A DNA stretch of 62,523 nucleotides, the filler included, from Platydemus manokwari (Eukaryota), in assembly GCA_037951405.1 (NCBI GenBank). It is 6 parts of 6 records of this genome, joined end to end, with 100 filler letters (N's around TTAATTAATTAA, not from the genome) between each part and the next. Parts side by side here need not be neighbours in the genome. Positions count along the whole stretch, not along the records: positions 42,714 to 52,929 come from JBBMOY011157438.1; 5 more parts are not named here. One strand, 5' to 3'. Below are positions 1,813-56,875 of this stretch, piece after piece (within the stretch, counting starts at the first letter, position 1; every line of letters starts with the position of its first letter). The position numbers and the translations under genes were made by a program. The notes below the pieces were generated by a model. The model was given only the letters and a program-made list of their open reading frames with translations. It did not search any database and had not been told where the DNA came from.

Positions 1813-2819
1813 TCATCGATAGTCGAGTAGAGATATATTTGTGAAGATCTATATTTGAGTGTAAAAGCAGGAATCAGAAATTCAAATTATAAATAAAATA
1901 CCAATACTATTCGTTGATTCAGTGAAAGACAACATATTGTAAACCAACATAAAACCAGAGGTATTAATTGTTTTTATGACCTGTTTCAAATATTGGGTCA
2001 AAAGTACATATTAAAAGTAACAGGTAACAATATAAATGGAACATAACAATACATGAAAAAATTCATTGATCACATTCATGTAAGGTTCATTATTAAAATG
2101 AAAATCTCGTTCAGGATTATCTGGAAATAAGTAGCAATCAATGCTATTCGATAACCAATGTCTAAAAATATACTATCTCTATAAATGTGCCAACAATCCT
2201 GTAATGCCTGTCAATCTCATGGATATACAGGTTACAATTTTGACAATAATTCATTATCCCGTTCCTGGTGACAACAACAAGTCTTATTGTTTTTTTCAAA
2301 TAGCCTTAAAGAATAAATTACTGTTTATTGGATGATAATGATGATTTTTATGATGGAGATTCTGATCTATTAGATAATCATTTATAAATATCTTGATTAA
2401 TTACATAATAATTTGTCTTCATCTACACTTCATTGGACCACATGGATGTTTTGATAATGAATAAAACATGTTTTTTTGTAATTTGTTCGGTTTTACGTTT
2501 AATTATTATTATTATTATCACTAGATATTAATATTGAATGTTATTATTAATAATAATTTATTAATTATTTTTATATTACCTCAATAATTGATGTTATCTG
2601 GATCATAAAGGAATCTTTAGCCATTGTCAAAAAGAAAACCTCTGAAAAAGAACGTTTTAAATCATGTGTTGAATGCAAAAATGTCGTTTGGAATTTAAAA
2701 TGGAGGTCAATTCTAATGGAGTTGAGAATCGCCATCCCCAAATTATGAATTTTAATAAACAAAAAATCTATTTTTATCGATTTTTAATTCATCGATTCTA
2801 TAATTCAAATAATAATGAG

Positions 2820-8574: not shown

Positions 8575-10231
8575 TTATTGATCGAATGGAAGGCCTTTGT
8601 GATGTTTGGCAGAGCTGACAAATTTGATAAATATTTCATCATTCTCGATCAAATCGGGATTGGCTGATATTTGTGCAGCTGTGATCTCGAGGTATCCAAC
8701 ATGGATTGGTTGGTTTTTACCACTTGATGATTTGTTCAATACATCATCATTGATGCATTCGGAACATTCTACCTCCAATTTTTCGAAAGACAGACCAGTT
8801 TTCTGATTTATCAAGGCCATCTCGACATCTCGATCGAAAGGCCATTTGAGAATGCCGTCATATTGGCCTTTCAAAATGCAGAAATAGAAATAGAAATTTC
8901 CGATATATCGACCAATCCAGCAAGCGAGACGCAGTTTATAACCATTTGGGTGCGACAGGAACTCATCACTGTAAAACCAGATTGCATCTGCACTGGTTTG
9001 TGCCTGCCTGACTTTATCAGCCCAATTATCGATTTTCCAGACATACTCAGTCCCTTTCAAATGAATATCTTGCAGCTCGATTAATTTTTCTGATATTTCT
9101 GCTGTCGATAATCTGATCGTTTCAATCGATTGAGTTGCATCGATTGATTCAGTTTTATAAGCAGCACTGGCTTGCGACAACTCATCGAGCTTTACCTAAA
9201 TAAGCAGTGAAGATATGCAATTAAGTTTTCCACCAATCAAATTCACCTCGGCCATTGACACACGATCACAAATATCATTGCTTCTTGTTTCATCTAGTGT
9301 GCATCGCTGTTTGAGTTCATTGATTTCTTTCTGCTGTTGTTCGATTTGTAATTTCAATTGATCGAATTCTTGAGTGTGATTATCGATTTTTGTATTGACA
9401 AGGACATTCTTCATGCAAAATACCAACAGATAAATCCATATTTAACAACTCATCTCACTTGTTGTATCTGGCTGTCTTTCAGATTCATCATTTCACTTCT
9501 TATTGATCTGTTTTCGATTTTAAGACTGCACATTTTTTCGTTTAATAATTCGATTTCTATCGAATCTTGTTGCACTTTATTCTGCAAATCTTGAATAATT
9601 TTCTAAAATATTTTTCAATCAGAAATTCAATTGGATGAATATCGATTTTTACTTTTGTTTCATCTCTATCGATTTTCATTTGCTGTTTCAGTTGATTGTT
9701 TTCCATCTTTAATGATTCAGTCTCATTTCCGAAATTATTCATCCAATTAATCAATAATTCGCTGTGACCTGAAATTTCTTGTAAAAGATGTTCATTCATT
9801 TTATTCATTGGTAATTGATTTTCCCCACAGCCCAGATTCGAATATGGGCAATTTTGTGATTTGAATTTGCAGCTTTTCAAATGAGTTTCCAGCATTTTTA
9901 ATTCAATTTGAGTTTTGCAATCAATATTTGGACATTTGGTCACTAATTTTGATATTCGAATATTCATAGCTCGATTAATGTGGATATCTCTGTCGAAATC
10001 AATGAAATCATCTTCACAAAATTCAGATTGTCCCGGACATTTTCTTTTAGTTTCTTTTAAATAATCTTTGATACATTCAATGCAAAATCGACATTCACAT
10101 GGCGTATGACAAGCATTCATCAATATCTTTTTACAAATCCCGCATTTATAACCAGCGTCTATTTCATCGACAATTTCTAAATCATTTTCTTTCATAATAT
10201 TCCACATATTGATAAATGTTTGTTGATCCAT
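8575..10231 (-). CDS. TRAF-family protein (RING, TRAF zinc finger, coiled coil, MATH), about 501 aa; exons 10231-9653, 9602-9459, 9408-9247, 9195-8575
   Basis: RING CGICKKILMNACHTPCECRFCIEC...CPG; zinc finger CPNIDC...HLKSC...CPY; MATH YVWKIDNW...FYSDEF...GYKLRL...GQYDGILKWPF. Three phase-0 GT-AG introns of 50, 50 and 51 nt join the ORFs in frame. Confidence 0.92.
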
Positions 10232-11110
10232 ATTATTGATTTGATTCTCTTAAATTCACCAAAGAATTCATTTTCACATCAAACAGTCAAATAATAATAA
10301 TTATCAAAAAATGTCACAAAATGTCCATGAAATATAATCAGATATAATTTTAAATAATAATATTATAATTAGAATATAAATAATAAAATTTAAAAATCAA
10401 TTGCATGATCGGAATAGTCTGAAATATAAATTTTGAAATTTTCAAGTGCTCGCTCTGATAAACAATAACATAAATATCGATTGATTTATTAAAGTATCAT
10501 CTGTATTAACAATGTGATAATTGAGTATTTCAGTAAATAATTGTTTTTGATTTCACCGCAAAATTTCAGTCGATACGTATCATGTCGATTTTTGTTTTTT
10601 TGCTTCATTTTACATTTTAGAAATTGCGTTTAGTTAGACTTTCTGTACCTTATTTCATCTTTTAAAACTGTTTTCAATTGCTGTCTAGTTTAAAATGTTC
10701 GAGTTGTCTCATTTGAAAAATCAATAATCATAACATTTTTATCTTATTTCCTGATCTATTTATTGGATTTGCACTTTATTTATTATTTATTTATGATTAT
10801 TATTTATTATTTATTATTTATTTATTTTTAGTCGATAAATATTGATTTTGACTGCTTGTTTCAAAATTTATTTCGTACCACAAAAATTTCCTTATTTATA
10901 TTATGGTTGATAATTACAACTCGATATTGTTTCTTGCAATTCTCGTCTGATTAAAATGAAGGTTTGACAGCTTTAATTAGTTATTGAACTAATTTACTTT
11001 TTACCTTGTGATTAATTTTACCGTCACAGTTTTTTATTTATCTTCCTCGGTTTTGCTGCACCAACTTGTCAATTTCTATGAGGTTGTTAATGATTTATGA
11101 ATTTTGTCTA

Positions 11111-14785: not shown

Positions 14786-16355
14786 TCAGTGCTTGACAGA
14801 AGCTTCGATCAATAATTGATTATCTCGGATCAATTCTGGATATTTAGATATTTCTGACGATTCAATAAAGAGATAATCACGCCAAAATTGTTCATTTTTT
14901 TCACTTGTTGGTTTCTGCAGTGTGGAGTGATTTCCATAATTAGAGCATTTTATAATCGTCGTTTCGTGAGAGAATCCAGTTTTCTGATTAATCACAGCCA
15001 GCTCGACAATCCCTTTGAATGGCCATTCGAGATTATCATCGAATGGGCCGTTTAAAATACGGAAATATACCCGCAAATTATCATTAAAATTACCAAGCCG
15101 CAAAACGAGATTCATTTTATAACCATTTGTTTTCGAGAAAAATGAGTCACTGAAAATAGTTTTCTCTGTGCTCGTTCGTAACTTCTTGATTGTGTCTGAA
15201 TAATTATTGATTTTCCACTCAAAATGTCCTGTTGTGTCAATATTTTCTACCAGATCGTTATAATTCTGCTCCGATTGGTCAATTTTATTAATTTGTAATT
15301 TCTGCGTAAACGTAATGCCTCATTCATATATTCAACCAATCAAATTTACTTCAATCATTTTCATTTGTTCTCCACATATTTTATCGAGTTTCTTTTCAAT
15401 CTCATTACACTGCTCTTTAAGTTTTTCGATTTCTTTAAACTCTATTTGCGCTGTCATGTGTTTCGTTTCACGAATTTGATTACCAACTCTTGGATTGAAA
15501 AACGCATTCTGAATAAACAAAACAAATCACAGTAAATCAATAAATTTCCTTTACATCTAACCGAATTTGTTTTGTCATCTTTAGCTGTCTTCAATTCACT
15601 TCTGATCGATCGATTCTCATTTTTCAAAGCCACCATTTCTTCATTCAACAATTCGATTTCCTTCGAATTCTCCTTTTCCTTTCTCTGCAAATCTGCAATA
15701 ATTTTCTAAAATATTTTTCAATCACAAAATATCATTTGATAAATATCGATTTTACTTGTGTTGTCTGTTTATCGTTTATCATTTGTTGTTCGAGATCGAA
15801 ATTTTTTGTTGTTAATTTATGAATCTCTTCCTTCAATGATTCAATTTCGTTGGAACAATTATTGATCCAATTAATCAATAATTTTGTATGAGGATAAATC
15901 TCATTTAGAAGGTGCTCAGTCACTTTATCTTTCGATAATCTACTTTCATCGCAGCCAAGATTAAATAAAGGGCATTGCTGATGCTGATTTGTGCAATTTT
16001 TTAAATGATTTTCAATCGATTTCAATTCAACTATCGTTTCACAATCAATATTTGGACAATGTGCTTTTAATTTCGATACACCAATATTGATTGCATTATT
16101 AATTTTAATGTTTTTGTCAAAATCCAAACATGTAAATGTGCAAAATTCTTTTCCTCCTGGACAATGTTTTGGTCCATTTATCAAATATTGTTTAATACAC
16201 TCTTTGCAAAACAGACAGAAACAAGGCGCTTTACACGCTTCCGTGAGAATTTTTTTACAAATTGTGCATTTGTAATTCCAATCCGTATTATCAGCGATTT
16301 CCAAATCATATTGTCTCATAATTGCCCACATTTTGTCGAAATGTTGATCAACCAT
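14786..16355 (-). CDS. TRAF-family paralogue, about 472 aa; exons 16355-15756, 15705-15562, 15508-15350, 15301-14786
   Basis: RING CTICKKILTEACKAPCFCLFCKEC...CPG; MATH GHFEWKINNY...IFSDSF...GYKMNL...GPFDDNLEWPFKG. Phase-0 introns of 50, 53 and 48 nt at the same positions as in the first TRAF; exon 2 is 144 nt in both. Confidence 0.92.
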
Positions 16356-19300
16356 TATTGGATTGTCTAAAATTTAATATAAAATCAATATCGACATTAA
16401 CACCATAAAACTAATAAACATTATATAAAGATATTGATATAAATTTTGAGCGAAAGAGTTTTTATTGGATGACACGATTGTGAAATGATTGATGAAAAAA
16501 ATTAGTAATTACCTCGCAAAAATATTCCGAAATTATTTAAAATAGAACTCTTGATATAACCTATATTGATTCGAATAAACAAATCCATCAATATTTGTAA
16601 TGAATAACTTGATATGAAAAATATTTAATTTTTCAAGTTAAAATCGTGTATTTTCATGATAAAATTTTCGCCTTATTTTACCATGACCTTAGACACTATC
16701 ATAGAATCGTACTAAAGGCATGGAAGAGAAACATGGTGCTGATTTATTATCGTGCTACAATGTCAATATTTAATTTAAATAATGATGGCATTACAATTGG
16801 ATGACCAAAGTTTCCTCATAAAACATCTCTTACAAATCATGAGTTCTGAATCACGTTCTTCTTCAAAAATATTGGAATTTATCGTTTCCTTTTAACTATA
16901 TTTTTATAAATTTTCTTTTTTGCATTTTACTTTTATTCAGATTTTAGCTATTTTAATAAATTGATCCAAACAACTAAAAATAGCTCGATTTGTATTCATA
17001 TTTACTGGAGAAAATATTTGATTTCTCTACTAGAACGGTTTTCTGTCATAAAAATTGTTTGATTTTGGAATTTGTGATTTATTGAAAAATATTATTTAAG
17101 AGTCGATAGAAAACTAATGAGAAGACTCTCAAAATTATTTAAAATGCTGGAATGTAGTGTTGGTCTTGATGCACCTTAAGACGATGATCGGTATAATTAA
17201 ATCTCAATTTAGGAACAAATATATCGAGTTGCTTTGTTTGTTACCTACATTCTTGGTGAATGAAGGCGGATTACGTGGATCCGCTGTACCCTTATAGAGC
17301 TGTACCCGTTTTAGAGCAGCAAATTCTAGTTAATAATTTATTCAACGTTCAGTTATTGATCAGATTGCTCATAAAGATTTTTGTTTGAATTTTTAAGATT
17401 TATTTTTTGTCCTTCTTTTAAAGTCACTTATTTATACGGCCTATCTAATGGCACTGGATTTTAACACTTATTCCAATGCCCCACATTTCCATACTGTTAA
17501 TAAATTTACTAATCGACAGATGCCACCTTTTTCTTAATGCCGGAAATACGAAAAACATTAAAATTATAAAAAATCCAATTCAAAACATCACAATAATTGT
17601 AAGCAATTTTTTAAGTGATTCAAAGATCTCTGCATTATTGTTTAAGAATTGGAGCTCATAATCTCCTTGACGAATAGGGAAATTTGTATTAATTGATATT
17701 TTTGATTAAGTATTTATTATTTTAACCACTGTGACCTCTCAAATCGAATCGAAAATCATTATTAGCTGATTATATATAATGATAACACGAGTGACTAACT
17801 TTCTGCCGGTTGCGGAGCTGTCTATTGGGACAATAAAATACGTAATAAAGGTATCATAGATTGTGTTTGGCTTTGAATTGCCTCTGAATTCTCGGGAGCG
17901 TTCTTTATCTTCTAATATAACTTGAACATTTTGACGATTGTACATATAGCATGCTCCATAAATCATTAATTTGTGTTTCCTTCATTTTTAGAGCACAGTG
18001 TGTCTAAGTCATCGTGTTTAAAACGTGTAAAGTAACCACGTGTCAATGTTCTCATTGGAAATTGCATTCCTAAATTTGTAACACGCGTATAATACATCAT
18101 CATAGAGTATCATGACAAATTTAAAAGAAACCCAAGTTACTATGACAACTTGCTAATTTATCATAAATAATTTAATACCAAATTAAATTTAAAAAATGTT
18201 CACAACTATTTATCCATTGAGAATCTTATTTATTTGTTTATTCGAACCAATTAAGATTGTGTTGTGGGTTTCTTCTCAATTTCTTCTCCAATCATTTCAC
18301 ATTAGAATCATCCAATAACGGTGTTTCAATAAAATTTTTCATCGACATCTTTCTATACTTACTTTTTTATAATGTTTGTTATGACATTTTAATATTTCTA
18401 CTAACCGATAGCTATTCCACTGACTAAAACCAATTTTAGTACCTCTTGTTTTCATTCCTATCAACATTATTTCTTGCTATTAAATCTGAAATTATTCTTA
18501 TTGAGTTTTTGTTTCGTGGTTTATCGTTTAATATTTTTAGTTCATGTTAAGGTTGTGTACTATACAAACCATTATTATCGATCAAATTAAACAAGTGAAC
18601 TGAAAATAGGAGAATCGAAAGAGGACCCTAAATAATCAAAATACTGACCCCATAAAGTGCTAGTAAGGTTACGCAAATACAATGTTAGGTAAGCTCATTG
18701 TGAATTCAGGTTTTATGGATTCGAATTCTTGTCTAATTGTTACGATCTGGCCATATTTGTTTTTTATAGGTTTTAATTTCATTTCTATTTCATGCCACTA
18801 TTGTTTTAATCAGTCTCACTGAGTTCTTGATTAAGACCTTTTTGTCATTCTAATCTTCACCTCGCTCAACGTTATTGTATGAGGACAATGGGTGTGGCAA
18901 TATTAATATCTTAACCATAAGTCTCAGTTTAAGCACCTTATTTTTAATCCTAAAATTGCTGATACCAATGACATTGAAGTATGATTTATGATCCCTATTT
19001 AATCAATAACTAATTCTCGTGACTACAAATTAAATAACAACGATACAAATTAACAACTAAATAAAATGATAAAATAAAAATTACAAGTTATTTCTAATGC
19101 TACAATTCACAACAAACTTTACAACGGACTTTTACAATTCCTGGATTAAGATGACGGTTGGCGAAGTCCATACTCTTGTGTCAAAACCCGTTACTTTTTC
19201 ATGATGATAATAGGAAGTATGAACTCGAACGTAGGAAATAAAAACGACTTTAGTAACGACCAGTAGTTTATATAACTGTATCTCACTGTTGGGTCTTTCA

Positions 19301-33779: not shown

Positions 33780-34600
33780 ATAATTTCAAAACACCAAAGA
33801 TTTCGAGAAATTTAATCCAATGGAACTATACTGTTGAGAGATGACCCCAAACAACTATGTCAAGAATTCAGCAGTTTTAAAGAGGCTGTTTAAAGTAAAG
33901 AAAATAAAAATGATTTTTGGAAACATTTTCACATGCAAAAACATTGTGTGACAAGTTTGAGGATTTGGCAACAATACAGCAAACACCAGAAGAAACATAT
34001 TGTCGATTAAATTCAAAAAAATCACTTCGGGCCAAATATGTCACGAAGCACTGAACATGAAATACCGGATTGTGATATTTGAGCTAAACGGATGGTATAC
34101 GCTGGACGGACTAAAGAAACTATGATTCAAATGGAAGAGTTTGGTCTGCTGTAACAGATTGTTGTTGATGTTGCACACTTTCAGAAATTTATGACGACAG
34201 GATGAAACATATATTTCGAAGGCCTTCATTGATAAATGTATCTATAGGTATGGTGCCTCAAGATCATAGCGCACTGATCATAATATAGCCTTTGAAGGAA
34301 GGAAGATGAAAAAATTAGTGATAAGTTTTGGAATAAAAGAAGAATTCACTTTGCTATACCAACATCAATCAGAGACATGGCATCGGAGAAACCGACTTGG
34401 GAATAATTAATATAGAAGATAGAAATCATCATTACTTCAACATATCAAAGTTTAATTCAACATTCTGCTTTTGAAATATTGACTGGACAAAGAATTTCTA
34501 TGCATGGGTTACGAGTAAATGAATCAAGTCATCACGACGAGATAATCAGGGTTCACTGGGTATTAGATTTAATACAATATGGATAAGAATAAATTAGAAA
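33780..34600 (+). mobile_element. Decayed Gypsy integrase fragment
   Basis: IYRYGASRS*RTDHNIAFEG (~34240-34300) resembles the RxGxP...SDQG..F integrase core, followed by a FT..YQHQS motif. Heavily disrupted. Confidence 0.55.
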
Positions 34601-42759: not shown

Positions 42760-43140
42760 ATACTTATTTTGAGAGAAAACACAAGTACCTGATTCTAGCG
42801 CTTCTCAATAATTTCGAAGTCACTTTTTTTATGAAATAACTCTAAAAATCTTAGATATCATTCCAATTGCTTCTAATGTTAAAAGGGTCCTCGTTAATTT
42901 TCAATTAATTCCATTTTGACCTACTTTGACCCGTTTTTCAAATAATTAATTTTTAATAGATTTTTAAAATCTTGTGCATTATTATTTGATTCTAAATAAC
43001 TAAAATTTTACTCAAGTGCTTAAATAAAAAATTCAAATTCATATTAATTAGTTTAAATAAATAATCTATATAGATTTTAGCAATACACTCCAAAATTTTA
43101 TTTTAGGACCCTATTTTTTAACTTTAGTCAATTTTTGTAA
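42760..43140 (-). repeat. Copy of the dispersed repeat family at 12380-13180
   Basis: The reverse complement contains ctatatag, aaagtaggtcaaa and cgaggaccc...aacattagaagcaa. Confidence 0.7.
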
Positions 43141-43149
43141 TGGAATTAC

Positions 43150-45250
43150 AGGACGTTTTTACTTGCGACCACGCCGAGATAAATGCTATGATGTGAGCCA
43201 CAGGAGAAGAAAGACAGAATATCTTTGCTAATCTACCGTAAAAAACTCAAGAGATCTTGATTCCAAAACCGTCGTTCTTCGATGCATGAGTACAAGAAGC
43301 TGAAATATGTTTCCAGACAACCAAAGATTTCTGAGCATTTAACCAAATGGAATTATCATTTGCATTCGAGAGAGAGAGACTACTGCTGTTGAGAGACGAC
43401 GTCAAACCACTGTGGCAAGAATACAGCAGTATCAAAGAAATTATTTCAAATGAAGTAATTGAGAAAAAGTTTTTGGAAACTTTCTCACATGCCAAGACAG
43501 TGTATGATAACATTCAGGATTTAGCAGCAATGCCGCAAAGACCATATGAGAAGTACGGAAGTTATGAACTTTGAGTAACGAAACTTGTGAAGGAGGTATT
43601 GGACAAGAAAAACACTCTTGAAGAAATTTTAAGACTATTTATTCTGTAAGTTCTAAATAGCAAGAAATTGAAAAAGTCTTTTACTCTCGACTTATCAATA
43701 GCCGACGATAGGAGAAGAGAGTTAGCTGTCAATTTAGAGAAGCTAAGTCCGTAAATGTCTATAAACAACATCAAGAAGACATATGGCCAGTCGGCATATG
43801 AAAGTAATCCAAGAAAATCCTTGCAGAGGGAGACTTCTTACAAGAGACGAATTAACTTGCGCAGGAAAAATATTTTAATGTAAAGGAATATCATCGGACA
43901 CCAGTTAATCACATTGAATCTCCAAACAATAACGAGACCAACAGGATCAATTAAACCTGTTGCTTCTAAATTCTAACACGATTGTAGAAAAAAACTCACG
44001 TGGTGATTATTTAAAATCAGGAACTGGTTTTTGCTGTGGACACCGGAGGTTTGAAAGTCCACTGCGGAATTAATGTTTAGTATGTGGAAAAGAAGGACAT
44101 CCGTTCAGAAAATGTCATTTAGCCCGAAAGTCTAATTCGAGGAAAATACTGTACATCCATGACAAAGAAGATAAAGCCGATATTCAAGCCTAGAGTGAAG
44201 CAGACGATTTTGTTAACTTATTCTCCATGGAATACAAAAACTGGAATCAACCTCCTATGCCTATCTCCTAAGTAGGTTTGACTCAATATGACAAATATCA
44301 ACTAGAAATAGAATATAAGTAAAGAATGAAGATAGCAAAATGAAGTGGAAGAAGTCACAGATGTGACAAAAAGCAGATGGTAGACAGTGGAGTACAATTG
44401 ATTGTAATCGGACACTTATTGAAATGTTATGGGGTTCTAGTGGATCGATAACAATGATGAATGAGAGCAATTGGAAGCGCATTGGAGAACCGCAATTGAA
44501 TATATTGCTGATAAGAAAATGGCTCAATTTTTATGGTGTTTCGGTTCGTTTTGGGACTAACAGGTTTGATCAAAAGGGGATCCTAACAAAAGGGGAATCT
44601 ATTACACAAAACCCCGGAGGTAACCAATAAATTTAGAAACCAAATTTCAAGAATTGATATAAATTGATAAAAGTTAATGTCATAAGCCAGTGCAAAAGCA
44701 TTTGGAATTTGCCTTTGGTCGTGCTTTCAAATAAAGATGGATAGATTAGTATTGGTTTAGACTTAAAATAATCGAACGAACAGACCGAAAAGATTTCTTT
44801 TCTGGTACTTTATATCCAAACGATTTTGAATTCTTTGTATTGAATGACAGTCTTTTCCACGATATTTTTAGGCCAAACATATTATCCGGTCGAACTTTAA
44901 GAAATTTCTAAATTGTAAAAGGGCGTTTTAACAGATTATCATTCGGACTATGCTCTGCACCAACAATGTTTCAGAGCCTAAACAATGTAATATTCAAGGG
45001 TTTACAAAAGTGTTCTTGTTTATCTGGATGACATTTTAGTGTATGGAAGAACAGTAGAGTAACACAATGTGAAACTGGACCGGGTATTTAGGTTGATCAA
45101 ATCATCAGGTTTGAAAATCAATCCCGAAAAATGTGTATTTTGAAACAAAAAATTGAATTTCTTGGATCATACGGTTAGTGAAGAAGATATAGAAACTAAT
45201 AACGACAAGGTGAGGAAAATTAAAGAAGTAATAAAACCCTATTGCATAAA
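43150..45250 (+). mobile_element. Decayed Ty3/Gypsy element: gag, protease and reverse transcriptase
   Basis: Knuckle CLVCGKEGHPFRKC (~44075); protease-like MLWGSSGSITMM; RT motifs SIWNLPLVV..NKDG, FGLCSAPTMFQ, VYLDDILV and KINPEKC. Confidence 0.88.
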
Positions 45251-46894
45251 GTGCACACATTTAATCATTTTTTATCCTGAATAAGGTGGCTAAGATATGG
45301 TTGCACCCTAATATTTTGGATATCTTTCCTTCTTTTAAAATTATTCTAGTTATCGGTTCCATAAACCGTGGTTTTTCCTTCTGCATTGATTGAGTGTTTC
45401 ATTATTTGCACTTAGATTTCTTTACATCTGTAATTATAAAGAGCCTCACCAAAATAGGACCGAATATCCAAATTTCATGCTACTATGTTTGAGTTTATCA
45501 AAACCATTGCCATTCAGTTTACCTATTGTATTTTGAGCCAAATAAAGTCTAATTTATTACTGAAATACTGTGTCATTTTAAGTCATCTTTGTGGACTTCA
45601 ATTTTATTATTTTAGTGATTTGTCCATCGTAATTTATTTCTAGACGAAAATTGAACATAATATTTATTACACAGTGAAATTGTTATCAAAATTATCTCCG
45701 AATTTATTAAACTATAAAAACTAATTCTATAAAAAGTAAAATTTATACACAAGAAAATTTCTTTTTATGTTTTAATAATTCTTAATAAGTTTACTACTTA
45801 AAATGATAACTGGTATGGCTTGAAGTATTCCAGTACCTTCAATAACTCCGCCAATGATACAAAATCATGTAATTACTTCAAAATATGTTGAATAAAATCG
45901 ACTTATATCAAATAAAGATTACAATGTTAATAATAGAAAAATTAATTATTTAATTTCTTTAATTTATAATTATCGAATTGAAATAAATATTTTTAACAAT
46001 TGTTTACAATTTTAAAATTCATTAAAATATTAAATTTAGCACGATTAAATGTTGTCAATTTCCTGCTAAAATTAACTAACACGCTAATGATCCATAAAAA
46101 TTATTACAAAAATCTTTCTACTTAAATGGAATTAACAAATACTAATTATAAAAATGATTTATATTGTTATATGTTCCTCACTAAATAATGAAGTCATCGG
46201 TAATATTAATAACATTGATTCATTTAAACAATAGTTTAAACACACTTAGTTTTATAGAAAATGTAATAAATAAAATGTATAATTAAATAGCTTGATAATT
46301 CAGTATGTTTCAGCTCAGGTCGTTTTAAATATTGTAAAACAAATATATGAATAAAATTTGGATAAAATATTTAGTTTATTCCAACATTATCAATAATAAA
46401 ACACATTTTGAGCACTCGATAATAAAGGCAGAAAAACATGTCTTATATCTGCTATGTTAATCAATGAATAACAAATTCGTTGCTATCCATCAATGTGAAT
46501 AAAACAATTCGAATATAGTTATGAAAACAATTCTATTTGTTATTGGTTATGAGATGAAATTGTAAATTATACTGACGAATAATGTCTGTTAACCAATAAA
46601 AGTTATTTATTGAAAATGTTGATAATATTTATTAAATACCTATGTTATAGTTGTTTAAGTGGGCCACTCAGATATTTTCGTACAATAAACATAAATTGAA
46701 GAGGTTTGTCAGAATTTCTTTTAATATATCATAATCATAAAGTAATATAAATAGAGAGAAAATATAAAAATTCACAAGCATTTTCTCACCAAAATGATTT
46801 AAATTACAAAATATATTACAAACAAATATGTCATCATATTGATTTTTATGTTATTTTCTAATTCAATCCCATATCTGTTCATAATAGGATACAT

Positions 46895-47730
46895 CTTTTG
46901 AATTCAGGTGTACTAATAACTACTATTAATAAAATATCATTAATACAATTATTATTATTTATGTGTATTCAATACTCACACATAATTTTAAATTTGTTTA
47001 ACTAGTTGTATAAACTGGTTGCTGAATAAAGATGAGATGTCCTAAAAGGAAAAACGATTTTGCACCTTGAAACCCATTTTTTTTAGCTTTTTTAGAATTT
47101 CCATGCCTACACAACAATACAGGTATAACAATCAACCAATCACAGCTGACTTAGATGGAAAATGATAATTGTAAAAAGAAACATAGCCACACAACACCCA
47201 TATAGGAATGGACCAATTCCGCATATACAAAAATCAACAAGTCCAATAGGAACTTAACAAATTAAAGATAAAATCAAAATGAAGTATAAGCTTGATACAA
47301 AAATTGCCGATGATCATAATGACACATACCTTTTGAATTCAGATGTACTAATAACTACTATTAATAAAATTTCATTAATACAATTATTATTATTTATAGA
47401 GTTTCAATACTCACAAATAATTTTTTATTTGTTTAACTAGTTGTATAAACTACTTGTTGAATAAAGATATGATGTCCCAAAAAGAAAAACGATTTTGCAC
47501 CTTGGAACCCTTGTTTTAACAATTTTAGCATTTGCACATCTACACAACCACACAGGCATAACAATTGACCAATCACATCTGACTTAAACGAAAATGATAA
47601 TTGGAAAAGAAACATAGCCACACAACACACATACATATAAAAAAATCAACAAGTCCAATAGAAACTCAAGAAACTTGAGAAATTAAAGATCAAATTAAAA
47701 TATGATATTAGCGTGATACAAAAATTGCCA
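46895..47730. repeat. Diverged tandem duplication, about 420-435 bp unit, 2 copies
   Basis: gaattcag-tgtactaataactactattaataaaat at 46900 and 47335; aactagttgtataaac, gattttgcaccttg, aaagaaacatagccacacaacac and gatacaaaaattgcc all occur twice. Confidence 0.9.
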
Positions 47731-47899
47731 TAAATCTCAAGTATAAATATTAAGATAAAGATAGCCAGGTGGAAGCCAAGTTTTTGTTTGTAATTTTTGA
47801 GATATTTGTAGAAACTTTAAATCGTGATGATTAGTACACGTTTACAAAAATACAGTTTGCAACTTTCGATTATTCAGTCGTCAACAATTGTTTGATAAC

Positions 47900-49790
47900 T
47901 CCGACATAACACAAAAATTAATTTAGAGGCAGACAATAAAAATTCAGACAATCAAATTCTCCAAAGTCAACAGCAAGTCCAAACTCAAATTAGAAAGAAT
48001 CCTCAAGCAGACATTGTTAGCTCTCAGAAGCTCTCAGTCGACAAGTACGAAGCGAATCCAGTAGATTCTGGGAACTTCATGATAGACTATTTCATGTATA
48101 TCTCTACATACGAATGGACTGAAAGAACAATGATTTAAAGACTGCTTCTCCACATAAAAGGTGCACCAAGAGAGGCCTAGAATACAATTGAACGAAGAAA
48201 TATCATTAAGTTTACAGTCATGAGAGATGTGTTTTCATACTCGTCACAATTTGTTCTTCAGATCTCAGAAAGCTTATAAAACACACGGGTATATTGCGTA
48301 CCACTTGTAAACTCCAGCAGAAAAGGCATTCGAAACGAAAACTAGCGAGAATCATTTAAATCTCGAAGTAGCTCCACTTTCCCAATTCTCAAACAAAAAG
48401 ATTCACCAGTTCGGGATATCAGAGTGTGCTTAACATGCGGTGAAATTGACTACCTTCCGAGAGTCTACAAAACAGAAATCTTCACGAAATCATCCCAACG
48501 ACACATTTTTAACAGTCAAAGCCACATTAAATGCTTCTCCTTTAGTAATCTCGCAAGGTCATGTTCATAAAACATGAGTAAATTTCAGCAATCGTCTCCG
48601 AATAAGAAAGTAAGTTCTTAAGACCATCTACCCAGAGTCAATTTGGCACAGTTTGAATATCAAGCTTAATAGGAATCAAAATCGGTGATGAGAGACAAGC
48701 TAGAAAGTTAGATCGAAGAAATATAGGGTAAAGAAGGGCATAATCTAACGATTGAGATGCAAAAATGAATATTGATGATGACGAGAGTAATAAATAATTG
48801 ACACATTGGAGAACGAAATTGGAGATTTGTATGACGCGTTTTGAGAAAATTCCGACAAAAATTTGGAACGCGGTGACTTTGCAGAATACCTTTTAATTTA
48901 GGAGAAAATTAAAATAAATTATGTTCAGTTATGTCGTGGCAGCTTTTGAGGAGTAGGTAATTAATCCAGGATTTGTAAAAATAATTACAGAAATGTTGGA
49001 TTTTATAGAAGTTACTTATAAAGTGAGAGATTTCGAAATTTAGTTGAAAATTTGGTAGGATATTTAATTAAAGTAGAGTTAAATTATTTTTTGAGAGTTC
49101 GAGATATTAGAAGCCAGACTGCAAGGGGAGTTGCTCTGCTTTCCTTTTTGAATTAATTTTGCGTAATGATGAAAACGGTGTTGTGGTGAAAATAGAAAAA
49201 CAATTTATGGGAGAATGGAAAAATTCCCCCGAAATGATAGCACAAGTGAGTACATTATTAAAGGAAGGGCTTTTTACGTTGTGTGGTAAAAGGATAACTT
49301 AAATCTTCCTCCATTAGAGATCAGTTTGATGAAATCAGGGGTTGAAATGGAGAACTTTAAACAGCAATGATCTACAAAGATAAAGAGAATTAGTAGAAAG
49401 ATTTCAGAAAAATTGTGAATCGAAGCAGTTCTTATTTTATCATATTGTGATCAAAATTTAGATGATAGTGAACATCTGTTAAATTACGGATGTATTACTG
49501 GAAAAACTAATTAAATTAATGTTAAGGTTTATACTGAGCAAAGAATTGTCAATGAAAATGTGAAACATAACCGAGTCAATTTACAAAAAAAGTGGCGCAA
49601 TGTATGAAATTCAAAAAGCAGTATTTAATTTGCCAGCCCGTTAAAGTAATGATACTTTCAATAATAATGAAATTTTGAAAGATTATGTTATTAAAGAATA
49701 GAACAAAAAATCTAATGAAATTGAATAAATTAATAATAAATATCGAATATATTTAACGAAATTATAGAACAAGATAAAGAAAATTAAAAG
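47900..49790 (+). mobile_element. Gag (two knuckles) plus domain X of a decayed LTR element, same family as 5040-7036
   Basis: NFMIDYFMYISTYEWTERTMI*RLLLHIKGAPREA (~48070-48180); CLTCGEIDY (~48427); HWRTKLEICMTRFEK (48804-48848); NPGFVKIITEML; LNLPPLEIS. Confidence 0.72.
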
Positions 49791-51200
49791 TTGGAATGTT
49801 ATCCTTTTCCTTTTGGAGTAAAGTAAAACTTTTTACTGAGATTATGATGTTATATTTCGCCAAAATAAAGTTAGAACTTTCATTGCACAATTTTGCTCTA
49901 AAACAGGATGAGGAAAAATTTGTTCATTAATGGATATAATGGAATGGACAAAATCGTATCCGATGAAAATTTCTGGTAGCGATGACAACCATAGTTTTAT
50001 ATATCAAGACTCGAATTTTATTCGAGATCAGTTAAAAGAATACTGTTGCTTTAGTAAGTGGTGTTACACATCACTGTTTATGATATAGGCAATTCCTAGA
50101 TCGTTAGCGAAAGATGCCTGAAATTGTGAAGCAGCCTTTCAAACTGGAAAATTAAAAATAGACAACGAAATTAGACCGTTTGCGAAAAGAGGTTATATTA
50201 TAAGAGAATTTTTTGTTATTATACGACATGTCGAGGCCAATGGAGGGTGTAGAGGAGAACCATATAAATGTTCTGGACAAATTTTTGATAAAGTTGTAGT
50301 AATGGAAGATTATTCCGTCGAAATACGACAATGGGAAGGTGAATCTGATGAATGGACTGGACAAATTCAAACTCATCCATTTTGCAACTAAAAACACAAA
50401 TGTTGCCAAACCGGTGAGTCAGTATTAGTTTACTATGTAAAATCACAGGATTGTAATTTGAATGAAGTTAAAGGTGAACGTGTAAATAAAGCCATCAATA
50501 GTTTACCTTTCAAAGGAACACCTAACGGCAAGATAAATATCATTCCAGTAAGAACAAAGCCAACTCCAACTGATTTAATGTCAACTCTGACCGAAGATGT
50601 AATGCGCTTTATTAGAAAAGACACAGTAGCAAAATATGGTAAATTAGTGTATAAGACCAATTATAAAGGACTACGTGTATAAAAAAATAAAACTATAAAG
50701 TGCCAAAAAACATCCACAGCGATGACCTAAAACTGACATATTATTTCAGTAATATATACTTTTGATTTTGGTCGAAAAACAGGAACTAATGTATATTTCT
50801 TTCAGAACTTATATTAAATTACCGTAGGATAAAATTTAAACGCAGTAGCACCTATGCTGGTCATCGAAAATGGGATATTTGGTCACGTTCTATGTAAAGA
50901 ACCACATAGTTACATGTAAAATAAACTCCCAGCACAAATAATGAAACATAATACATGTGCAAACGAGCTTCAAACCAATTTCGAAGAGAAACTATATTTA
51001 ATGGAACCGATAACTCATTTTAGATGAAGGAAAATATTGGAGAGTAACCCAATACTTAATATATTCTACATCTTTAAATAATTTGGCAGTTACTTGAATG
51101 TATTCACCAGAAGACTTGGAGGATGCTAGACGTTATTTTAGGATGTGTTCCTTTTGTAACTTAATCTTAATCATTAACAATCAGTATGAAGATATGAATA
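49790..51200 (+). pseudogene. Chuvirus (Jingchuvirales)-like class III fusion glycoprotein (env-like), decayed
   Basis: One frame from ~49800 to 50730 and again 50821-51025 with few stops: FIAQFC...SLMDI, FIYQ, CEAAFQTGKL, GGCRGEPY...DKVVV, CN*KHKCC...VLVY...C, GKLVYKTNYKGLRV, GIFGHVL, TCANELQTNF...LMEPITH; then MYSPEDL (51098). Motif order and Cys spacing match chuvirus-type glycoproteins as I recall them. Confidence 0.68.
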
Positions 51201-51569
51201 ATATTAAATCTGAAATGAGAAATAAAATGAAAGTGAATTCCGTACATATTCGATTACTTACGATAACTCACCGAATGACCAAAACAATGACTTTAAATCA
51301 GGAGATGATAAAAATATAATATCGAGTTCAGATATATTAGTATCAAATTTTGGAGACTCATGAACCATATTAAGATTAGAAATGTTTCGAAAAAAATGAA
51401 CCGCGTTTGAATAATTTATTAATATCCTCAATATTTAAACCACCACGTTTTTATCTTTTGAGTGAGTTCGTAGAAATGTAGAAAAATTTAAGAGAAATAC
51501 TAAAAATAAAAAGAGTGCCTTGGGGTGTAACAGAAGAAATAATCTAGCGATACATAACTCATATATATA

Positions 51570-51870
51570 TAAAACACTTGGACACAAGGGTCCAACACCT
51601 TCCAAACGCATTAAGCTAAATAACAGACCAGCTGGTGCTATTATTGACTCAAGATAAAATATGCTATAATATCAAGAGACTTTCTAACACAAAGGAAGAA
51701 AATGTAGTTTGGGCATTAGGAAGTATAAAAACATATGTAGCGTTGATACAACAAATGGTCGGGAGTCCTGTGGTAAATATTTAAATGACAAGTGAGATAA
51801 TACAACACATTGTAGTTGTAATGCTTAGTTTGAATGTTTGTTAGGAATGGATATACTAGAACGATAAGGA
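51570..51870 (+). pseudogene. Retropepsin (aspartic protease) remnant
   Basis: GPTPSKRIKLNNRPAGAIIDS(R) with the catalytic Asp at 51646, then IISRDFL, and the C-terminal motif FECLLGMDILE at 51829. Confidence 0.7.
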
Positions 51871-52929
51871 AACATACCAATGGATTTGCAAATAGGAAAT
51901 CTTTTCCAATCCTCTTCTATCAAATTAATTCATAATTCAAATGAACTGCATTTAGCGTGTATGCAGTTCAGAGGTTGTATACGATGTTAGCACATCAGAA
52001 AATGAAAAAGGATGAATATTATTTGATCCAAAGAAGTGGTTCGTGCAAAAAATATGAAATACCAGTTTGTTATAAATTAGTATTGAGAGAGAGAATGAAA
52101 AGATTCCAGTTCATCTCTACAGTGGATAAAAATGGACATGGTTACAAATTTTTACAAATTTCAAATAAAAATTAAAACCAGCTAATTAATACATTTCAAT
52201 AAACTTTGAAAGTTTATAAATTACTACGATACACATAAAAAATTGTCATCATCAATAATTGTCAGAGTTAGTTCAGCATTTGAATTTTAAGTTGGATTTG
52301 TCGACGCACCAACATAAGTAAGATTGAGTAACTTCCAGTAAATATAATATTTTTTGTGACATGATATTTGATTTCATATGCTATAGTTTCTTATTTTATT
52401 CGGTATATTATTTTATTTTGATTTCATGTGTGATTATTGTGATATGGTTTTAACTTTATTATCCTGTTATCTGTTCAACCAACGTGACGAATTAATAGAG
52501 GCAAATACTATTTGATGTCACGCAGTAAGTAATAAACATAATAAATAATATTGACACATTATATGCTTTGAATTGTTACAAGTGTTGGGCTTTTGGAAAA
52601 ACTGACTCCGTTATCTGCATGAATTAATCTTTTAAAAACCACCCCTATATCAATGTATAAAAGTATATTGCATGAAAATAATATTTAAATTTTTTTGGAT
52701 TATAATTCTGGAAAAGCTCTGCGGTTGATGAGACGATCTCCTTAAGTGCGTTGAAATTGAACGATGGGTCTACTCCAATTGATGTAACGATAATAACGGC
52801 AGTGACAGAATTCGTCTATGGTTTTGTGTCAGCGAAAATAATGGCAGTTTTCATTGAAATCACTGCCTTATATAGGCAGCGAATTACTTGCAGATATTGT
52901 CTGCGATTAAATTTAATGCCAGTGAATAT

Positions 52930-53029: not shown

Positions 53030-54290
53030 CATCTGATTATATGTGATATCAAATTGCATTTTATTGGGTGGACAGTTACTTCTACTTAATATAACTTTTA
53101 ATGATTTTATATATTTATCATTTCCAATATTTTGAATGAACTTTGGATTATTTTTAGTTAAACTAATTTCGGGATCTTTAAAAGCAATTATAATATATCT
53201 CGGTCTATTCTTTAATAAATCTACTTGCCATATATAAGTCTGAGACTCTGGAATACCAATTAGATTTGAAAGTCCATTTGAATAATTAACTTAAATTAGT
53301 TTTGTTTCGTAAAATATTTTATTATCATCCATAAATATGTTTAAGTTTAATTTAATCATCATCAAAAATAATGGTCTATTATAGTTTTCTAAAAACCAAA
53401 ATATGTGTTTTAATGGAAATCGTCATGTGAACCTGTTTTTTTAATTATAAAAGGCTTTTCTTCTCTTAAATCCCCTATTGTCTTTATCTGGATCTTCTTT
53501 AGTTTTATTTGGAATCCGTGATGTCAACTCTCCGGTTTTTCATCAAATTGATCTAATAAAATAAAATTTAACATAATTGATGCTCCTTCAACACTTTCAA
53601 CATTTTCAATTTCGTGTGTACTCAATGTTAATCTCATAGAGTTAAATAAATTAGAAAAGAAATTATTTTCTAAAGTTATATTATGGTTTTCTCATACACC
53701 AACACTATTTTTTGTCTTTTCTAATTTAATCTCAATTTAAAATCTTAAGAAACTATTACAAATATGTAGAGGCTTCTGATAATGCTTTATGATTTAGACT
53801 AAATATTTATGGTTCAATGAAGCCCGGCTTTACGTCATTTTTTGCTAATAATTTATTATTTCAACATTTTTTTCTCCAATAGCTTACAAATTTTTATTTC
53901 CTACTTCAATTGCTAGTTGCTGTTTTCACTCAATAGCTTTTAAATTTTTATTTCCCTCCTCAATTACTAATCGTTTTTTATCTTGATTTTGTACAACGGG
54001 TTCTAATAAAGGTTTAGAAAATTCGATAATACCTGGGTTTCACAAAATTTTTGAATGTAGTTTTTCTTTAGATTCAGTATTTATTTCTGTTTTAAGGAAA
54101 GACTCTTTTTTAATTCTTCTATTCTTTTTTTTATCTTATAACCCGCCATTTTTATTTATAAAATTATGTGTTTAGTTTTCTTCTTAACAACTTCTTTAAC
54201 GCCTTTTTAACTTCCTCTTTTCTTCTTCATTAGCTTTAAACAGATCTGCAAGATTTACATCTTTATCTTTATCAAAAGCTGTATATTTAT
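53030..54290 (-). mobile_element. Maverick/Polinton remnant, left part: ATPase C-terminal tail, Lys-rich ORF and integrase start
   Basis: Minus strand: KYTAFDKDK..., FSKPLLEP, YIWQVDLL (integrase first-Asp motif, ~53220) and PPNKMQFD (second-Asp motif, ~53060). Confidence 0.55.
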
Positions 54291-54299
54291 ATCAAATTC

Positions 54300-56875
54300 T
54301 AAGGGTCCCATATGTAACCCTAATAATACTGATAAAATAGTGGAAACTCAGGAAGTACCAGCCCCAGTGATTAAAGAAGTCAAAATCAAAAAATTCACTA
54401 CGAGGCAAGAAAAAATGCTGATCCTAATGGATAAACAGGCCATTGTGTCGACACCAAAAAGAGTAAACAAGAATCGATCTCTTTCAACCATCCCCAACTC
54501 AAGGTTCTTAGATAGTGAGGAGTACTCCTTATCTTGCACTGCGAGCTACAGAGAGGAGCCTCAATGTCGTATAACGAATGGTTTTCCGGAGACCAGATTG
54601 ATAAATATGTGTCAACACATGTTAAGTTAAATGATTGCATGTTCATCAGTAGCTATGTTGCAGAATTAATTACAAATGAAGCCAATCTCAGTAAAGGTGG
54701 TATCAATCCCTTGAAGCTCACAATATGTAAAACGGTCCTTGGTCCAATTAACGTACGAGACCAACATTAGATGCTACTAGTGATATACCCATTCGGGGAG
54801 GTATACTTGGCCATTGAGTACTGACGAATTCTTAAATGAAGCTGAAATCAAAGTGAAGAGGATATGCAACACACCCAAATACGAAAACATACTATGGAAA
54901 AACTCAAAGATAAAAAGAAACTTCTTTGATAAGAAAGAACGGCAATTACAAAAAAATAACTTTTGACTGCGGCCTATTAATATGTGGCTACATTGATTGC
55001 GTAGCCATTAGCCGATCATGCATAGGCATAGACATCAGTACCATCAGAAGAAATTATAAAGACATTCTATATGCAGACCCAGTGACAAAAATCATAAACA
55101 AGATTTTCATAAAATGTCTAGATAACCGAGAAATACTAGAGGAATGAAAAATATAAACAACATTGATGATACCGAAACCTATGAAAAAAGGTCACTATCA
55201 TCAAGTCAACTCCTGGCGTCCTATTGCTATGCTCGACTGCAGGTATAAATTTCCACAACTATTCTGTATAAACAACTGAAGAATTGGATTGATGAAAACA
55301 ACTTAATACATCCACTCCAGAAGAGCCTAGGTCTAAATGACTGATGTGCCGAACACGGCTTTTTACTTCGAGCCATTATAGAAGAACAGAGCAAGAAAAA
55401 TATCGATAATGTTCACATCGGATTCTTAGACATCGAGGAAGTCTTTCCTTCATTAGATCTTGAAGTGATTATGAAACAAAACTGCTCGATCTCCATGTTT
55501 TTATTCAACATAGTCATCAATCCAATCTATGTAAAAATAGACAACTGTCTTATTGGAGGCCTGATAATTGCAAATCATCGAATTTCATGCCTTGCATATG
55601 CACATGATATAGCAATTATTGCGAAAAAGCAAAATGGTCTCCAAAGGATGATCAATGAAGCATCGGCGCCCGAGTTCCAAATTGGCTTCAAGCTCAAACA
55701 CTCAAAATATGGGCACTTACATAAGGCGGCGGATCTCCTGATCCACAATGAGAAATTCCAACAATCAGTCTAGTAGAGCACTATCACTACCTAGGCTTGA
55801 ACCTCTCTTTGAAGGTACATAATTCAACTGAAGGACTGTTTATCGATATGGAAACACTGATGAATAAACTGTAAAAATGCATTTTATTACCATGGCAGAA
55901 ATTAAGGGCCTTTGACTTGTTCGTTCACACCAAAGTGACTTTCTACATAAGAAATTACTATGTCACATATAGTAGATTACTGCAGTTTGATGTGATGATA
56001 TGAAAATATCTGAAAAAAATCCTTGGCGTACCGAAATCTTGCTTATAGAATTACCTCTATTCAACAAAATCAAACGGTGGTTATGGACTACGAAGCATGA
56101 CGGAAGAGTATTCAATACAATCTATCATCCACAAGTATTATCTATTAACTAGCAAACATAAAATGATTAGGATGACGGCCATACAATCCTTGCGTAAAAG
56201 TGCTGGATTGAATAACCAAGCCGCGACAATCGAAGAAGCATTAGATTGCAATAATTCGCATATTCCCTCAAATGAAAGTAGCAAAACAAAAAGGGGTAGA
56301 GTATCAAATATGCCGCAAAGACAACATATAGCACATATATATTAGAGTTCAACAAAGCCTTACAATCAAAGATTTCATTACGAAAGGAGTGCCACAGTGG
56401 AAACAAAGAAAATCAAAGAAATGTCAAAACTACTGAGACAATATTTTGTACAATCTCACCAATTAAATTGGACTAATCAAATCAAAAATGGACGCTAATG
56501 CAGCTACTCAGAAGCTATTAGTCCAATGTGGTCTAAAGTAGTTTTAAAGGAGCCCCTCACTATTGCTGAATTGAGTTATGAAAATGATAAATAAGATAGC
56601 TCTTGCCTGCATAAAGTCGAATATAAATGCGATCTATGTGCAATGGAAGTTCCATCAGGGAAAAAAGTATGGCAACGAAGGTAGCCTTAAAATAAGGGAA
56701 GAAGATTTCCAAGAAAACATCGACTGGATAACGGAGACAGAATTGAATGAAATGTTGAATTGATTGTATGATTGAACTAGCGAACTGTGATTTATGGATC
56801 GAACGGAAGAAAGAACCATGTACATCCCATATTTTAATGTATGGGTATCTCTAATATCAATATTTATGAATAAAT
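54300..56875 (+). mobile_element. Decayed non-LTR retrotransposon, NeSL/R2-like, with Ulp1 (C48) cysteine protease and RT
   Basis: Ulp1: EWFSGDQIDKY, GPINVRDQH*ML, FDCGLLIC. RT: MIPKP..NSWRPIAML, HPLQK, FLDIEEVF, KQNCSISMFLFN, LAYAHDI, YHYLG, GGYGL. 3' stem-loop cccata-N8-tatggg and AATAAA at 56869. Confidence 0.88.

What the first reader, a model, noticed from the sequence alone, without database searches (positions are those of the whole stretch)
47900..51870. Enveloped LTR retroelement with a chuvirus-like class III fusogen placed between gag and protease
Seen: on one strand and in order are Gag with two CCHC knuckles, about 1.1 kb of unknown coding-like sequence (X), a Cys-patterned glycoprotein of about 450 codons, and a retropepsin (AIIDS...LLGMDIL). 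The glycoprotein frame continues upstream through an internal basic-hydrophobic stretch (KIKKIKSWNVILFLL), interrupted only by point-mutation-type stops. Known: captured env genes normally lie 3' of pol (errantiviruses, nematode BEL/Pao env captures, mosquito BEL/Pao elements with chuvirus G). Inference: this is a potentially infectious retroelement family with a Gag-X-Env-Pol polyprotein. It should be compared with the giant single-ORF Burro Gypsy elements of Schmidtea.
Basis: partly seen in the sequence, partly recalled or inferred. Interest (0 to 1): 0.88.

Follow-up and report, generated by a model that had tools for sequence, protein, structure and literature searches.

The report
Decayed Gag-Env-Pol gypsy retroelement fragment
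This is a broken 4-kb remnant of a retrovirus-like jumping gene that carries a herpes/chuvirus-type cell-entry protein between gag and protease, an arrangement already published for flatworms, nematodes and bryozoans, in a host that is likely a planarian.

Summary
On the + strand lie, in order, gag, a ubiquitin-like stretch, a class III (gB/chuvirus-type) env and a retropepsin. Profiles from intact relatives place gag, the ubiquitin-like stretch and the protease in that order, so this is one element, not nested pieces. Relatives encode Gag-X-Env-PR-RT-RH-IN in a single ORF. This copy is dead: stops, frameshifts, no transmembrane anchor, degenerate knuckles and catalytic site, no RT, integrase or LTR pair. 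The arrangement is not new. It was described for planarian Burro elements (PMC6431247, 2019) and, with a gB-type env, for GAG-ENV-POL Ty3/gypsy elements of flatworms, nematodes and bryozoans (PMC13524379). The env is closest to published Schmidtea mediterranea errantivirus_1/2 (about 48% identity, counted by eye). The host is probably a triclad flatworm (inferred). Read depth hints at a high-copy family in this genome, but intact copies were not seen. Small addition: the evidence suggests the Burro-type env is class III, not F-like. This scan noted a gB-type env gypsy in another genome (e1-7496385). Verdict: new, decayed member of a known kind; low interest.

The parts
47902..48660 (+). Decayed gag; capsid N-terminal match at 48031-48192
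   Evidence: Gag profile from 2 relatives, 15.5 bits; next best in the window 5.1, best of 40 shuffles 2.5; tblastn to P0010 42% over 45 aa, E 7e-6 within the contig; 6 stops in 253 codons
48427..48564 (+). Two degenerate zinc knuckles (neither an intact CCHC)
   Evidence: Read directly from the translation; no Pfam hit at E<=0.1
48661..49770 (+). Region X, frameshifted; holds a ubiquitin-like domain at about 49362-49526; no Bcl-2-like domain found
   Evidence: Profile from 5 relatives, 17.5 bits; next best 4.6, best shuffle 1.8. The ubiquitin label is weak: Pfam ubiquitin E 0.005 in 1 of 4 relative segments and in L002; the window's own segment has no ubiquitin hit. Bcl-2-like profile: no hit here
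49771..49818 (+). Basic-hydrophobic stretch at the place of the internal signal/anchor of relatives (probable remnant)
   Evidence: Position just upstream of the env match; hydropathy stays under the 1.6 threshold that 3 of 4 relatives pass there
49852..51154 (+). Class III (gB/chuvirus-type, PF24664) env, broken: stops, frameshifts, membrane anchor missing
   Evidence: Pfam E 4.4e-6; phmmer best E 1e-33; profile positions 19-317, 374-439, 490-517 of 643; X-read model matches gB and GP64 at E 2e-4
51598..51912 (+). Decayed retropepsin; catalytic motif reads IIDSR (Asp at 51646)
   Evidence: Profile from 5 relatives, 16.8 bits; next best outside the element 1.8, best shuffle 0.0
51968..52117 (+). 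Weak trace of the domain that lies between protease and RT in relatives (dUTPase-like in Burro); the element's recognisable sequence ends here
   Evidence: 2.4 bits, weak, in the expected place; the dUTPase label comes from PMC6431247, not from a hit here
45264..45597 (-). Second, separately decayed fragment of the same env family
   Evidence: Profile hits up to 16.7 bits; 220 of 335 aligned bases identical to the main copy

Best explanation
This is a dead, 3'-truncated copy of a retroelement with the order gag - ubiquitin-like - class III env - protease, likely a Ty3/gypsy GAG-ENV-POL element of the Burro-like / Smed_errantivirus_1-2 kind in a planarian host. Shown: the domain order on one strand, the env family and fold, the breaks, and that intact relatives carry all domains through integrase in one ORF. 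Inferred for the live ancestor: one polyprotein is made; an internal hydrophobic segment after Gag-X threads the env ectodomain into the ER lumen, and a second membrane segment returns PR-RT-RH-IN to the cytosol; signal peptidase and the element's protease would release the parts; particles would bud with a gB-like trimeric fusogen and enter other cells. This copy can do none of that.
For: Gag, ubiquitin-like and protease profiles from relatives, which were found through env alone, each have their best hit in the 62-kb window inside 48031-51912, on the + strand and in the relatives' order, far above 40 shuffles. Of 16 hits scanned, 9 carry env and protease in one protein, 4 of them also RT and RH, and 3 carry a CCHC knuckle or (P0007) a Bcl-2-like match upstream of env. 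L003 has CCHC-env-PR-RT-RH-IN in one 2693-aa ORF and L001 a 3426-aa open ORF from the ubiquitin-like domain to IN. A relative's env model matches herpes gB (E 5e-13) and chuvirus-like G (E 2e-38). Hydrophobic segments flank env at both ends in 3 of 4 relatives scanned. The motifs AAFQT, QTHP and GEPYK of the window's env occur only in Smed_errantivirus_1 and _2 in the published gB-type env table. In a quick tree the window env groups with P0018, P0020, P0029, P0038 (SH-aLRT 95); P0020 is, by eye, about 94% identical to the Smed_errantivirus_1 row.
Against: This copy has no RT, so the Ty3/gypsy assignment rests on relatives. No LTR pair here or in L001 and L003 (both contigs may simply end too soon). 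No Bcl-2-like domain, unlike Burro. Pfam score for the window's env is below the curated cut-off, and TM-scores to gB are low (0.29 for the relative, under 0.2 for the window's model). Two word-seeded homolog searches found nothing. The tree is a quick one without bootstrap, on partly overlapping fragments, with 9 short hits left out. The host is inferred, not named.
Confidence: 0.88

Rival explanations
1. A chuvirus glycoprotein gene (an endogenous viral element) or a separate env-bearing fragment landed inside an env-less gypsy element, so the order is an accident of nesting.
For: The contig is a graveyard of repeats, with a second env fragment on the other strand beside an unrelated gypsy RT. 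Chuvirus-derived glycoprotein insertions often sit next to fragmentary LTR elements (PMC10084718).
Against: All best sequence hits are retroelement polyproteins or their fragments. The same relatives that match env also supply the flanking gag, ubiquitin-like and protease matches in the same order. Single contigs of run X1 bridge the gag-X, X-env and tail-protease junctions with no differences, which speaks against mis-assembly though not against old nesting.
Confidence: 0.04
2. It is a BEL/Pao element with a chuvirus glycoprotein (Anakin-like) rather than a Ty3/gypsy element.
For: Anakin elements carry the same type of glycoprotein (PMC7642597), and several knuckles are typical of BEL/Pao Gag (recalled).
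Against: Relatives' Pol regions hit RT_RNaseH, Integrase_H2C2 and rve and show a GPY motif; no Pao-specific Pfam family appeared among the polyproteins scanned. The nearest published env sequences are from Ty3/gypsy elements.
Confidence: 0.03
3. The family keeps env but moves only inside cells; env serves another role (virus-like-particle release, interference) or is simply carried along, so it is not infectious.
For: No entry mechanism has been shown for gB-type errantiviruses (PMC13524379). A single polyprotein leaves env and Pol tied in fixed amounts (inference).
Against: Env is kept whole, with both hydrophobic segments and conserved cysteines, in diverged relatives at 25-56% identity; published S. 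mediterranea families with intact env have 45 and 215 near-identical copies.
Confidence: 0.3

Closest known systems
Smed_errantivirus_1 and _2 of Schmidtea mediterranea; GAG-ENV-POL 'ancient errantiviruses' with HSV/gB-type env (Chary and Hayashi, PMC13524379)
   Same: Order GAG-ENV-POL, gB-type env, shared env motifs found in no other row of the paper's table; 66 of 138 residues identical to the errantivirus_1 row without gaps, counted by eye, against 64% between families 1 and 2 and 31-38% for the other S. mediterranea pairs shown.
   Different: This copy is broken and truncated, and is too diverged to be either family. The paper's main text does not mention ubiquitin-like or dUTPase-like domains or a single ORF.
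Burro / GYPSM1 giant gypsy elements of planarians (Arkhipova and Yushenova, PMC6431247)
   Same: Gag with two or three knuckles, ubiquitin/SUMO-like domain, env in frame between gag and protease, dUTPase-like domain between PR and RT; relatives found here also show Bcl-2-like and ankyrin matches.
   Different: Gag-to-env distance is only about 1.1 kb with no Bcl-2-like or MATH match; one protease seen. The 2019 paper ties Burro env to gypsy Env and baculo/paramyxovirus fusion proteins, while the env here is class III. No Burro sequence was available for a direct comparison.
Non-canonical nematode ERVs with env before pol (Sacco et al. 2022, J Gen Virol 103:1739)
   Same: Metavirus with an RNA-virus glycoprotein and flipped ENV-POL order, as cited in PMC13524379.
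   Different: Paper not held; only its title and one citing sentence were seen.
Anakin, mosquito BEL/Pao elements with chuvirus glycoprotein (PMC7642597)
   Same: Same glycoprotein type.
   Different: BEL/Pao backbone; the relatives here have gypsy-type Pol.

Membership tests
GAG-ENV-POL Ty3/gypsy errantiviruses with gB-type env | Order gag - env - pol on one strand | tested here: met
   (up to the protease in this copy; through integrase in relatives)
GAG-ENV-POL Ty3/gypsy errantiviruses with gB-type env | Env of class III, gB-like fold | tested here: met
   PF24664; Foldseek to gB, GP64 and chuvirus-like G; Atlas neighbours all class III families
GAG-ENV-POL Ty3/gypsy errantiviruses with gB-type env | Ty3/gypsy-type Pol (PR-RT-RH-IN; RT placed in Ty3/gypsy) | tested here: inconclusive
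   RT-IN absent from this copy; relatives have the order and a GPY motif; no RT tree with named references was possible
GAG-ENV-POL Ty3/gypsy errantiviruses with gB-type env | Flanking LTRs and primer-binding site | tested here: inconclusive
   No repeat pair around the element, but its 3' half is missing and the contig ends at 52929; primer-binding site not tested
GAG-ENV-POL Ty3/gypsy errantiviruses with gB-type env | Ectodomain flanked by signal/transmembrane segments | tested here: inconclusive
   Met in 3 of 4 relatives; in this copy only a weak upstream remnant and no C-terminal anchor
Burro | Ubiquitin/SUMO-like domain upstream of env | tested here: met
   17.5 bits with a relatives' profile; the ubiquitin label itself is weak
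Burro | BCL2-like domain directly before env | tested here: not met
   No hit in this copy; present in P0007, P0008, L001, L002
Burro | Single ORF of about 5000 aa, element over 30 kb with long LTRs | not testable with these tools
   4.2-kb fragment on a 10-kb contig; no host genome held
Burro | Sequence kinship to Burro1-4 | not testable with these tools
   No Burro sequence among tool results; only the indirect link through S. mediterranea elements of about 14.8 kb span versus a 4,873-aa ORF
Anakin (BEL/Pao with chuvirus G) | BEL/Pao-type Pol | tested here: not met
   Tested on relatives only: gypsy-type families and GPY motif, no Pao-specific Pfam hit

The most novel reading that the evidence does not exclude
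The host carries a live, high-copy, compact family (Gag - ubiquitin-like - class III Env - Pol in one membrane-crossing polyprotein, without the Bcl-2/MATH cargo of Burro) that forms enveloped particles and spreads between cells. Burro and the published S. mediterranea gB-type errantiviruses would then be one clade of flatworm retroviruses whose env is class III, not F-like as first described.
Probability: 0.3. Interest if true: 0.55.

Novelty: new member of a known kind. Interest (0 to 1): 0.2.

Why it matters
As found, it matters little: a fossil of a published architecture. Two small points remain of use. It links two literatures that do not cite each other in the texts read (Burro's in-frame env; gB-type GAG-ENV-POL errantiviruses) and suggests the Burro-type env is a class III fusogen. 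And it hints that another AT-rich, probably planarian genome holds a high-copy family of this kind. If such elements proved infectious, planarians would offer a tractable animal for asking how a one-polyprotein retrovirus with a gB-like entry protein spreads among stem cells, which PMC13524379 leaves open.

Tried and rejected
No host genome is held, so other copies could not be read. Word-seeded homolog searches with the X-read env found nothing at near or longer lengths; PDB sequence search gave only chance antibody hits. The look-up of contigs behind the polyprotein hits was closed, so their flanks and hosts were not seen. No LTR pair in L001 or L003. The 430-bp tandem duplication at 46876-47729 has no partner downstream, so it is not shown to be an LTR. 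The gypsy RT at 44661-45251 lies upstream, is only 25-31% identical to the relatives' RT and has its own gag, so it was rejected as this element's pol. Host naming through the kinesin light chain failed: named hits reach only 29-39%, one unnamed hit 71%. Sequencing runs: one holder, no RNA holder listed. Troyka was considered and dropped: no envelope protein (PMC12440569). The careful env tree did not finish; only the quick tree is cited. The env-tail hit (3.5 bits) does not beat shuffles on its own (3.7). Sacco 2022 and Grohme 2018 are not held. The scan's earlier notes held nothing on this genome.
Full report
Setting. The window is a string of contigs joined by N spacers; the finding lies in the contig at 42714-52929. 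GC is 22-37% per kb. No whole genome is held. Broken frames were read with X at stops.

Observation. The frame that carries gag (47902-48660) has 6 stops in 253 codons and the glycoprotein frame (49762-51060) 14 in 433, against 8.5 per 100 codons expected from base composition, as for decayed coding sequence. The glycoprotein frame matches Pfam PF24664, Monjiviricetes fusion glycoprotein, at E 4.4e-6 and 25.4 bits, just below the curated cut-off of 27; it was the only family hit among the 10 frames of the element scanned. Both knuckles are degenerate and the protease site reads IIDSR.

Relatives. Two word-seeded searches found nothing. phmmer over 1.84 billion representatives gave 43 hits at E<=0.001, the best at 1e-33 and 28-33% identity. 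I scanned 16 of the 43 with Pfam: 15 hit PF24664; 9 carry env and a retroviral protease in one protein; 4 of these go on to RT and RH, 3 to integrase; P0004 and P0010 have a CCHC knuckle upstream of env and P0007 a weak Bcl-2 match. A 4844-aa cluster member adds ankyrin and C2H2 matches. None has a useful name. A metagenome scan returned 3 loci. L003 has one 2693-aa ORF with CCHC, env, PR, RT, RH and IN; L001 has a 3426-aa open ORF from a ubiquitin-like domain through a Bcl-2-like domain, env, three proteases, RT and IN; L002 has gag, CCHC, ubiquitin-like and Bcl-2-like domains, one stop, then env in the same frame. So the Gag-X-Env-Pol polyprotein is real.

One element or nested pieces. Profiles were built from relatives' segments and run over all six frames of the whole window. 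Best hits: Gag 48031-48192 (15.5 bits, next 5.1), ubiquitin-like 49362-49526 (17.5, next 4.6), env 49852-50706 and 50830-51027 (151.6, 23.6), protease 51598-51912 (16.8), a weak trace of the PR-RT linker domain at 51968-52117 (2.4). All are on the + strand in the relatives' order. The best scores over 40 shuffles were 2.5, 1.8, 1.7 and 0.0. The env hit is expected by construction; the gag, ubiquitin-like and protease hits are not. The Bcl-2-like profile found nothing. The ubiquitin label is weak (Pfam E 0.005 in 1 of 4 relative segments, and in L002).

State of this copy. Env covers profile positions 19-317, 374-439 and 490-517 of 643; the last piece is in another frame and does not beat shuffles alone, and a patch at 50700-50753 matches in a third frame. 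The part that holds the membrane anchor in relatives is absent, and the main frame has no hydrophobic peak. A Pol profile finds no RT, RH or IN downstream; its only RT hit is a separate gypsy element upstream at 44661-45251, 25-31% identical to the relatives. No repeat pair flanks the element. Contigs of run X1 at depth 11-17 repeat the window's letters without differences over 47672-49116, 49437-50150, 50562-51223, 51204-51694 and 51671-52139, so the breaks there are in the DNA; X1 may be the source sample and is not independent. Variant contigs at summed depth about 3000-3700 match X (49076), env (50587-50636) and the env tail (51085). That hints at a family of a few hundred related copies, but the tool warns that depth is no copy number, and intact copies were not seen. 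A second env fragment lies on the - strand at 45264-45597, 220 of 335 aligned bases identical to the main copy.

Fold. A model of relative P0007 (mean pLDDT 71) matches herpesvirus gB at E 5e-13 with TM 0.29 and, among viral models, chuvirus-like and xinmovirus glycoproteins at E down to 2e-38 with TM up to 0.49. The X-read window protein (pLDDT 66) matches gB and baculovirus GP64 at E 2e-4 with TM under 0.2. Atlas neighbours are PF24664, rhabdovirus G, GP64 and gB clusters. The fusogen is class III.

How it likely works. Shown: order, family, fold, single ORF in relatives, hydrophobic segments on both sides of env in 3 of 4 relatives. Inferred: the polyprotein crosses the ER membrane twice, leaving Gag-X and Pol in the cytosol and env in the lumen; signal peptidase and the retropepsin release the parts; particles bud with a gB-like trimer. 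Infectivity is untested. This copy is a fossil.

What is known. Arkhipova and Yushenova 2019 (PMC6431247; passages and section 7 read) describe Burro with Gag, knuckles, a Ubi2/SUMO-like domain, BCL2, env in frame between gag and pol ('the first case'), and a dUTPase-like domain between PR and RT; they relate the env to gypsy Env and note hits to arthropod and fish mononegavirus glycoproteins. Chary and Hayashi (PMC13524379; abstract, passages, first parts of sections 5 and 6, sections 11 and 22, rows of supplements 1 and 2) report that elements of Nematoda, Bryozoa and Platyhelminthes carry only gB-type env arranged GAG-ENV-POL, and list six S. mediterranea families, two with 45 and 215 copies and spans of about 14.8 kb. 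They cite Sacco et al. 2022 for nematodes (title and one sentence seen; not held). In their env table the motifs AAFQT, QTHP and GEPYK occur only in Smed_errantivirus_1 and _2 (motifs split by alignment gaps would be missed). By eye, 66 of 138 residues of the window env equal the errantivirus_1 row without gaps; this count comes from no call. A quick tree of 36 env segments (9 short hits left out) groups the window with P0018, P0020, P0029 and P0038 at SH-aLRT 95, and P0020 differs from the errantivirus_1 row at about 7 of 111 places, by eye. Anakin papers: passages of PMC7642597 and part 2 of 5 of PMC10084718. Troyka: parts 1-2 of 5 of PMC12440569, not relevant.

Host. Not named by any search. 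A triclad flatworm is likely: AT-rich DNA (over 70% A/T in S. mediterranea, passage of PMC11410931), the nearest published env, and two TRAF genes on two other contigs of the window, a family expanded in planarians (passages of PMC6109357). This is inference.

What is not in print, as far as searched. The word Burro does not occur in the main text of PMC13524379, and searches joining Burro or gag-env-pol order with envelope or class III terms found no paper making the link. Subscription journals, Repbase, figures and the bioRxiv supplements were not visible, so this is weak. That Smed_errantivirus_1/2 are Burro is my inference from host, copy number and span (14.8 kb against a 4,873-aa ORF).

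Verdict. It is not filed as Burro, since the Bcl-2-like domain was tested and not found; it is a decayed member of the gB-type GAG-ENV-POL Ty3/gypsy kind, close to the S. mediterranea families. Interest 0.2.

Noticed in passing
window 43000-45251 (+): A separate decayed gypsy element with its own gag knuckle, protease and RT (Pfam RVT_1 E 1.5e-9); its RT stops right where the inverted env fragment begins (45264). Very high read depth.
   Followed up: partly
window 46876-47729: Tandem duplication of about 430 bp (82-97% alike) just upstream of gag, high read depth; could be part of a long LTR or an unrelated repeat.
   Followed up: partly
window 8575-10249 and 14786-16373 (-): Two TRAF genes (RING, zf-TRAF, MATH) on two different contigs, about 70-75% alike in DNA; fits a TRAF expansion.
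   Followed up: partly
window 2673-4343 (+): Intronless, very divergent kinesin light chain, 556 aa; 29-39% to named animal proteins, 71% to one unnamed protein.
   Followed up: partly
window 54211-56500 (+): Decayed RT-bearing element on the next contig (RVT_1 E 6e-6 at 55345-55770), probably non-LTR (by eye).
   Followed up: no
window 34198-34380 (+): Integrase-region fragment matching the relatives' Pol profile at 14.3 bits, on another contig.
   Followed up: no
L001 10617-12107 (+): A 496-aa ORF with an RNase T-like exonuclease match (E 1.4e-5) right after the polyprotein; P0044 has, by eye, a similar nuclease-like stretch upstream of env. Possibly accessory cargo of these elements.
   Followed up: no
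P0004, P0047, L001: Several relatives carry three to seven tandem retropepsin-like domains, some after integrase, and long membrane-protein-like C-terminal extensions.
   Followed up: no
P0012: An env-PR-RT-RH-IN polyprotein filed as a bacterial metagenome-assembled-genome protein; likely animal DNA in that bin.
   Followed up: no
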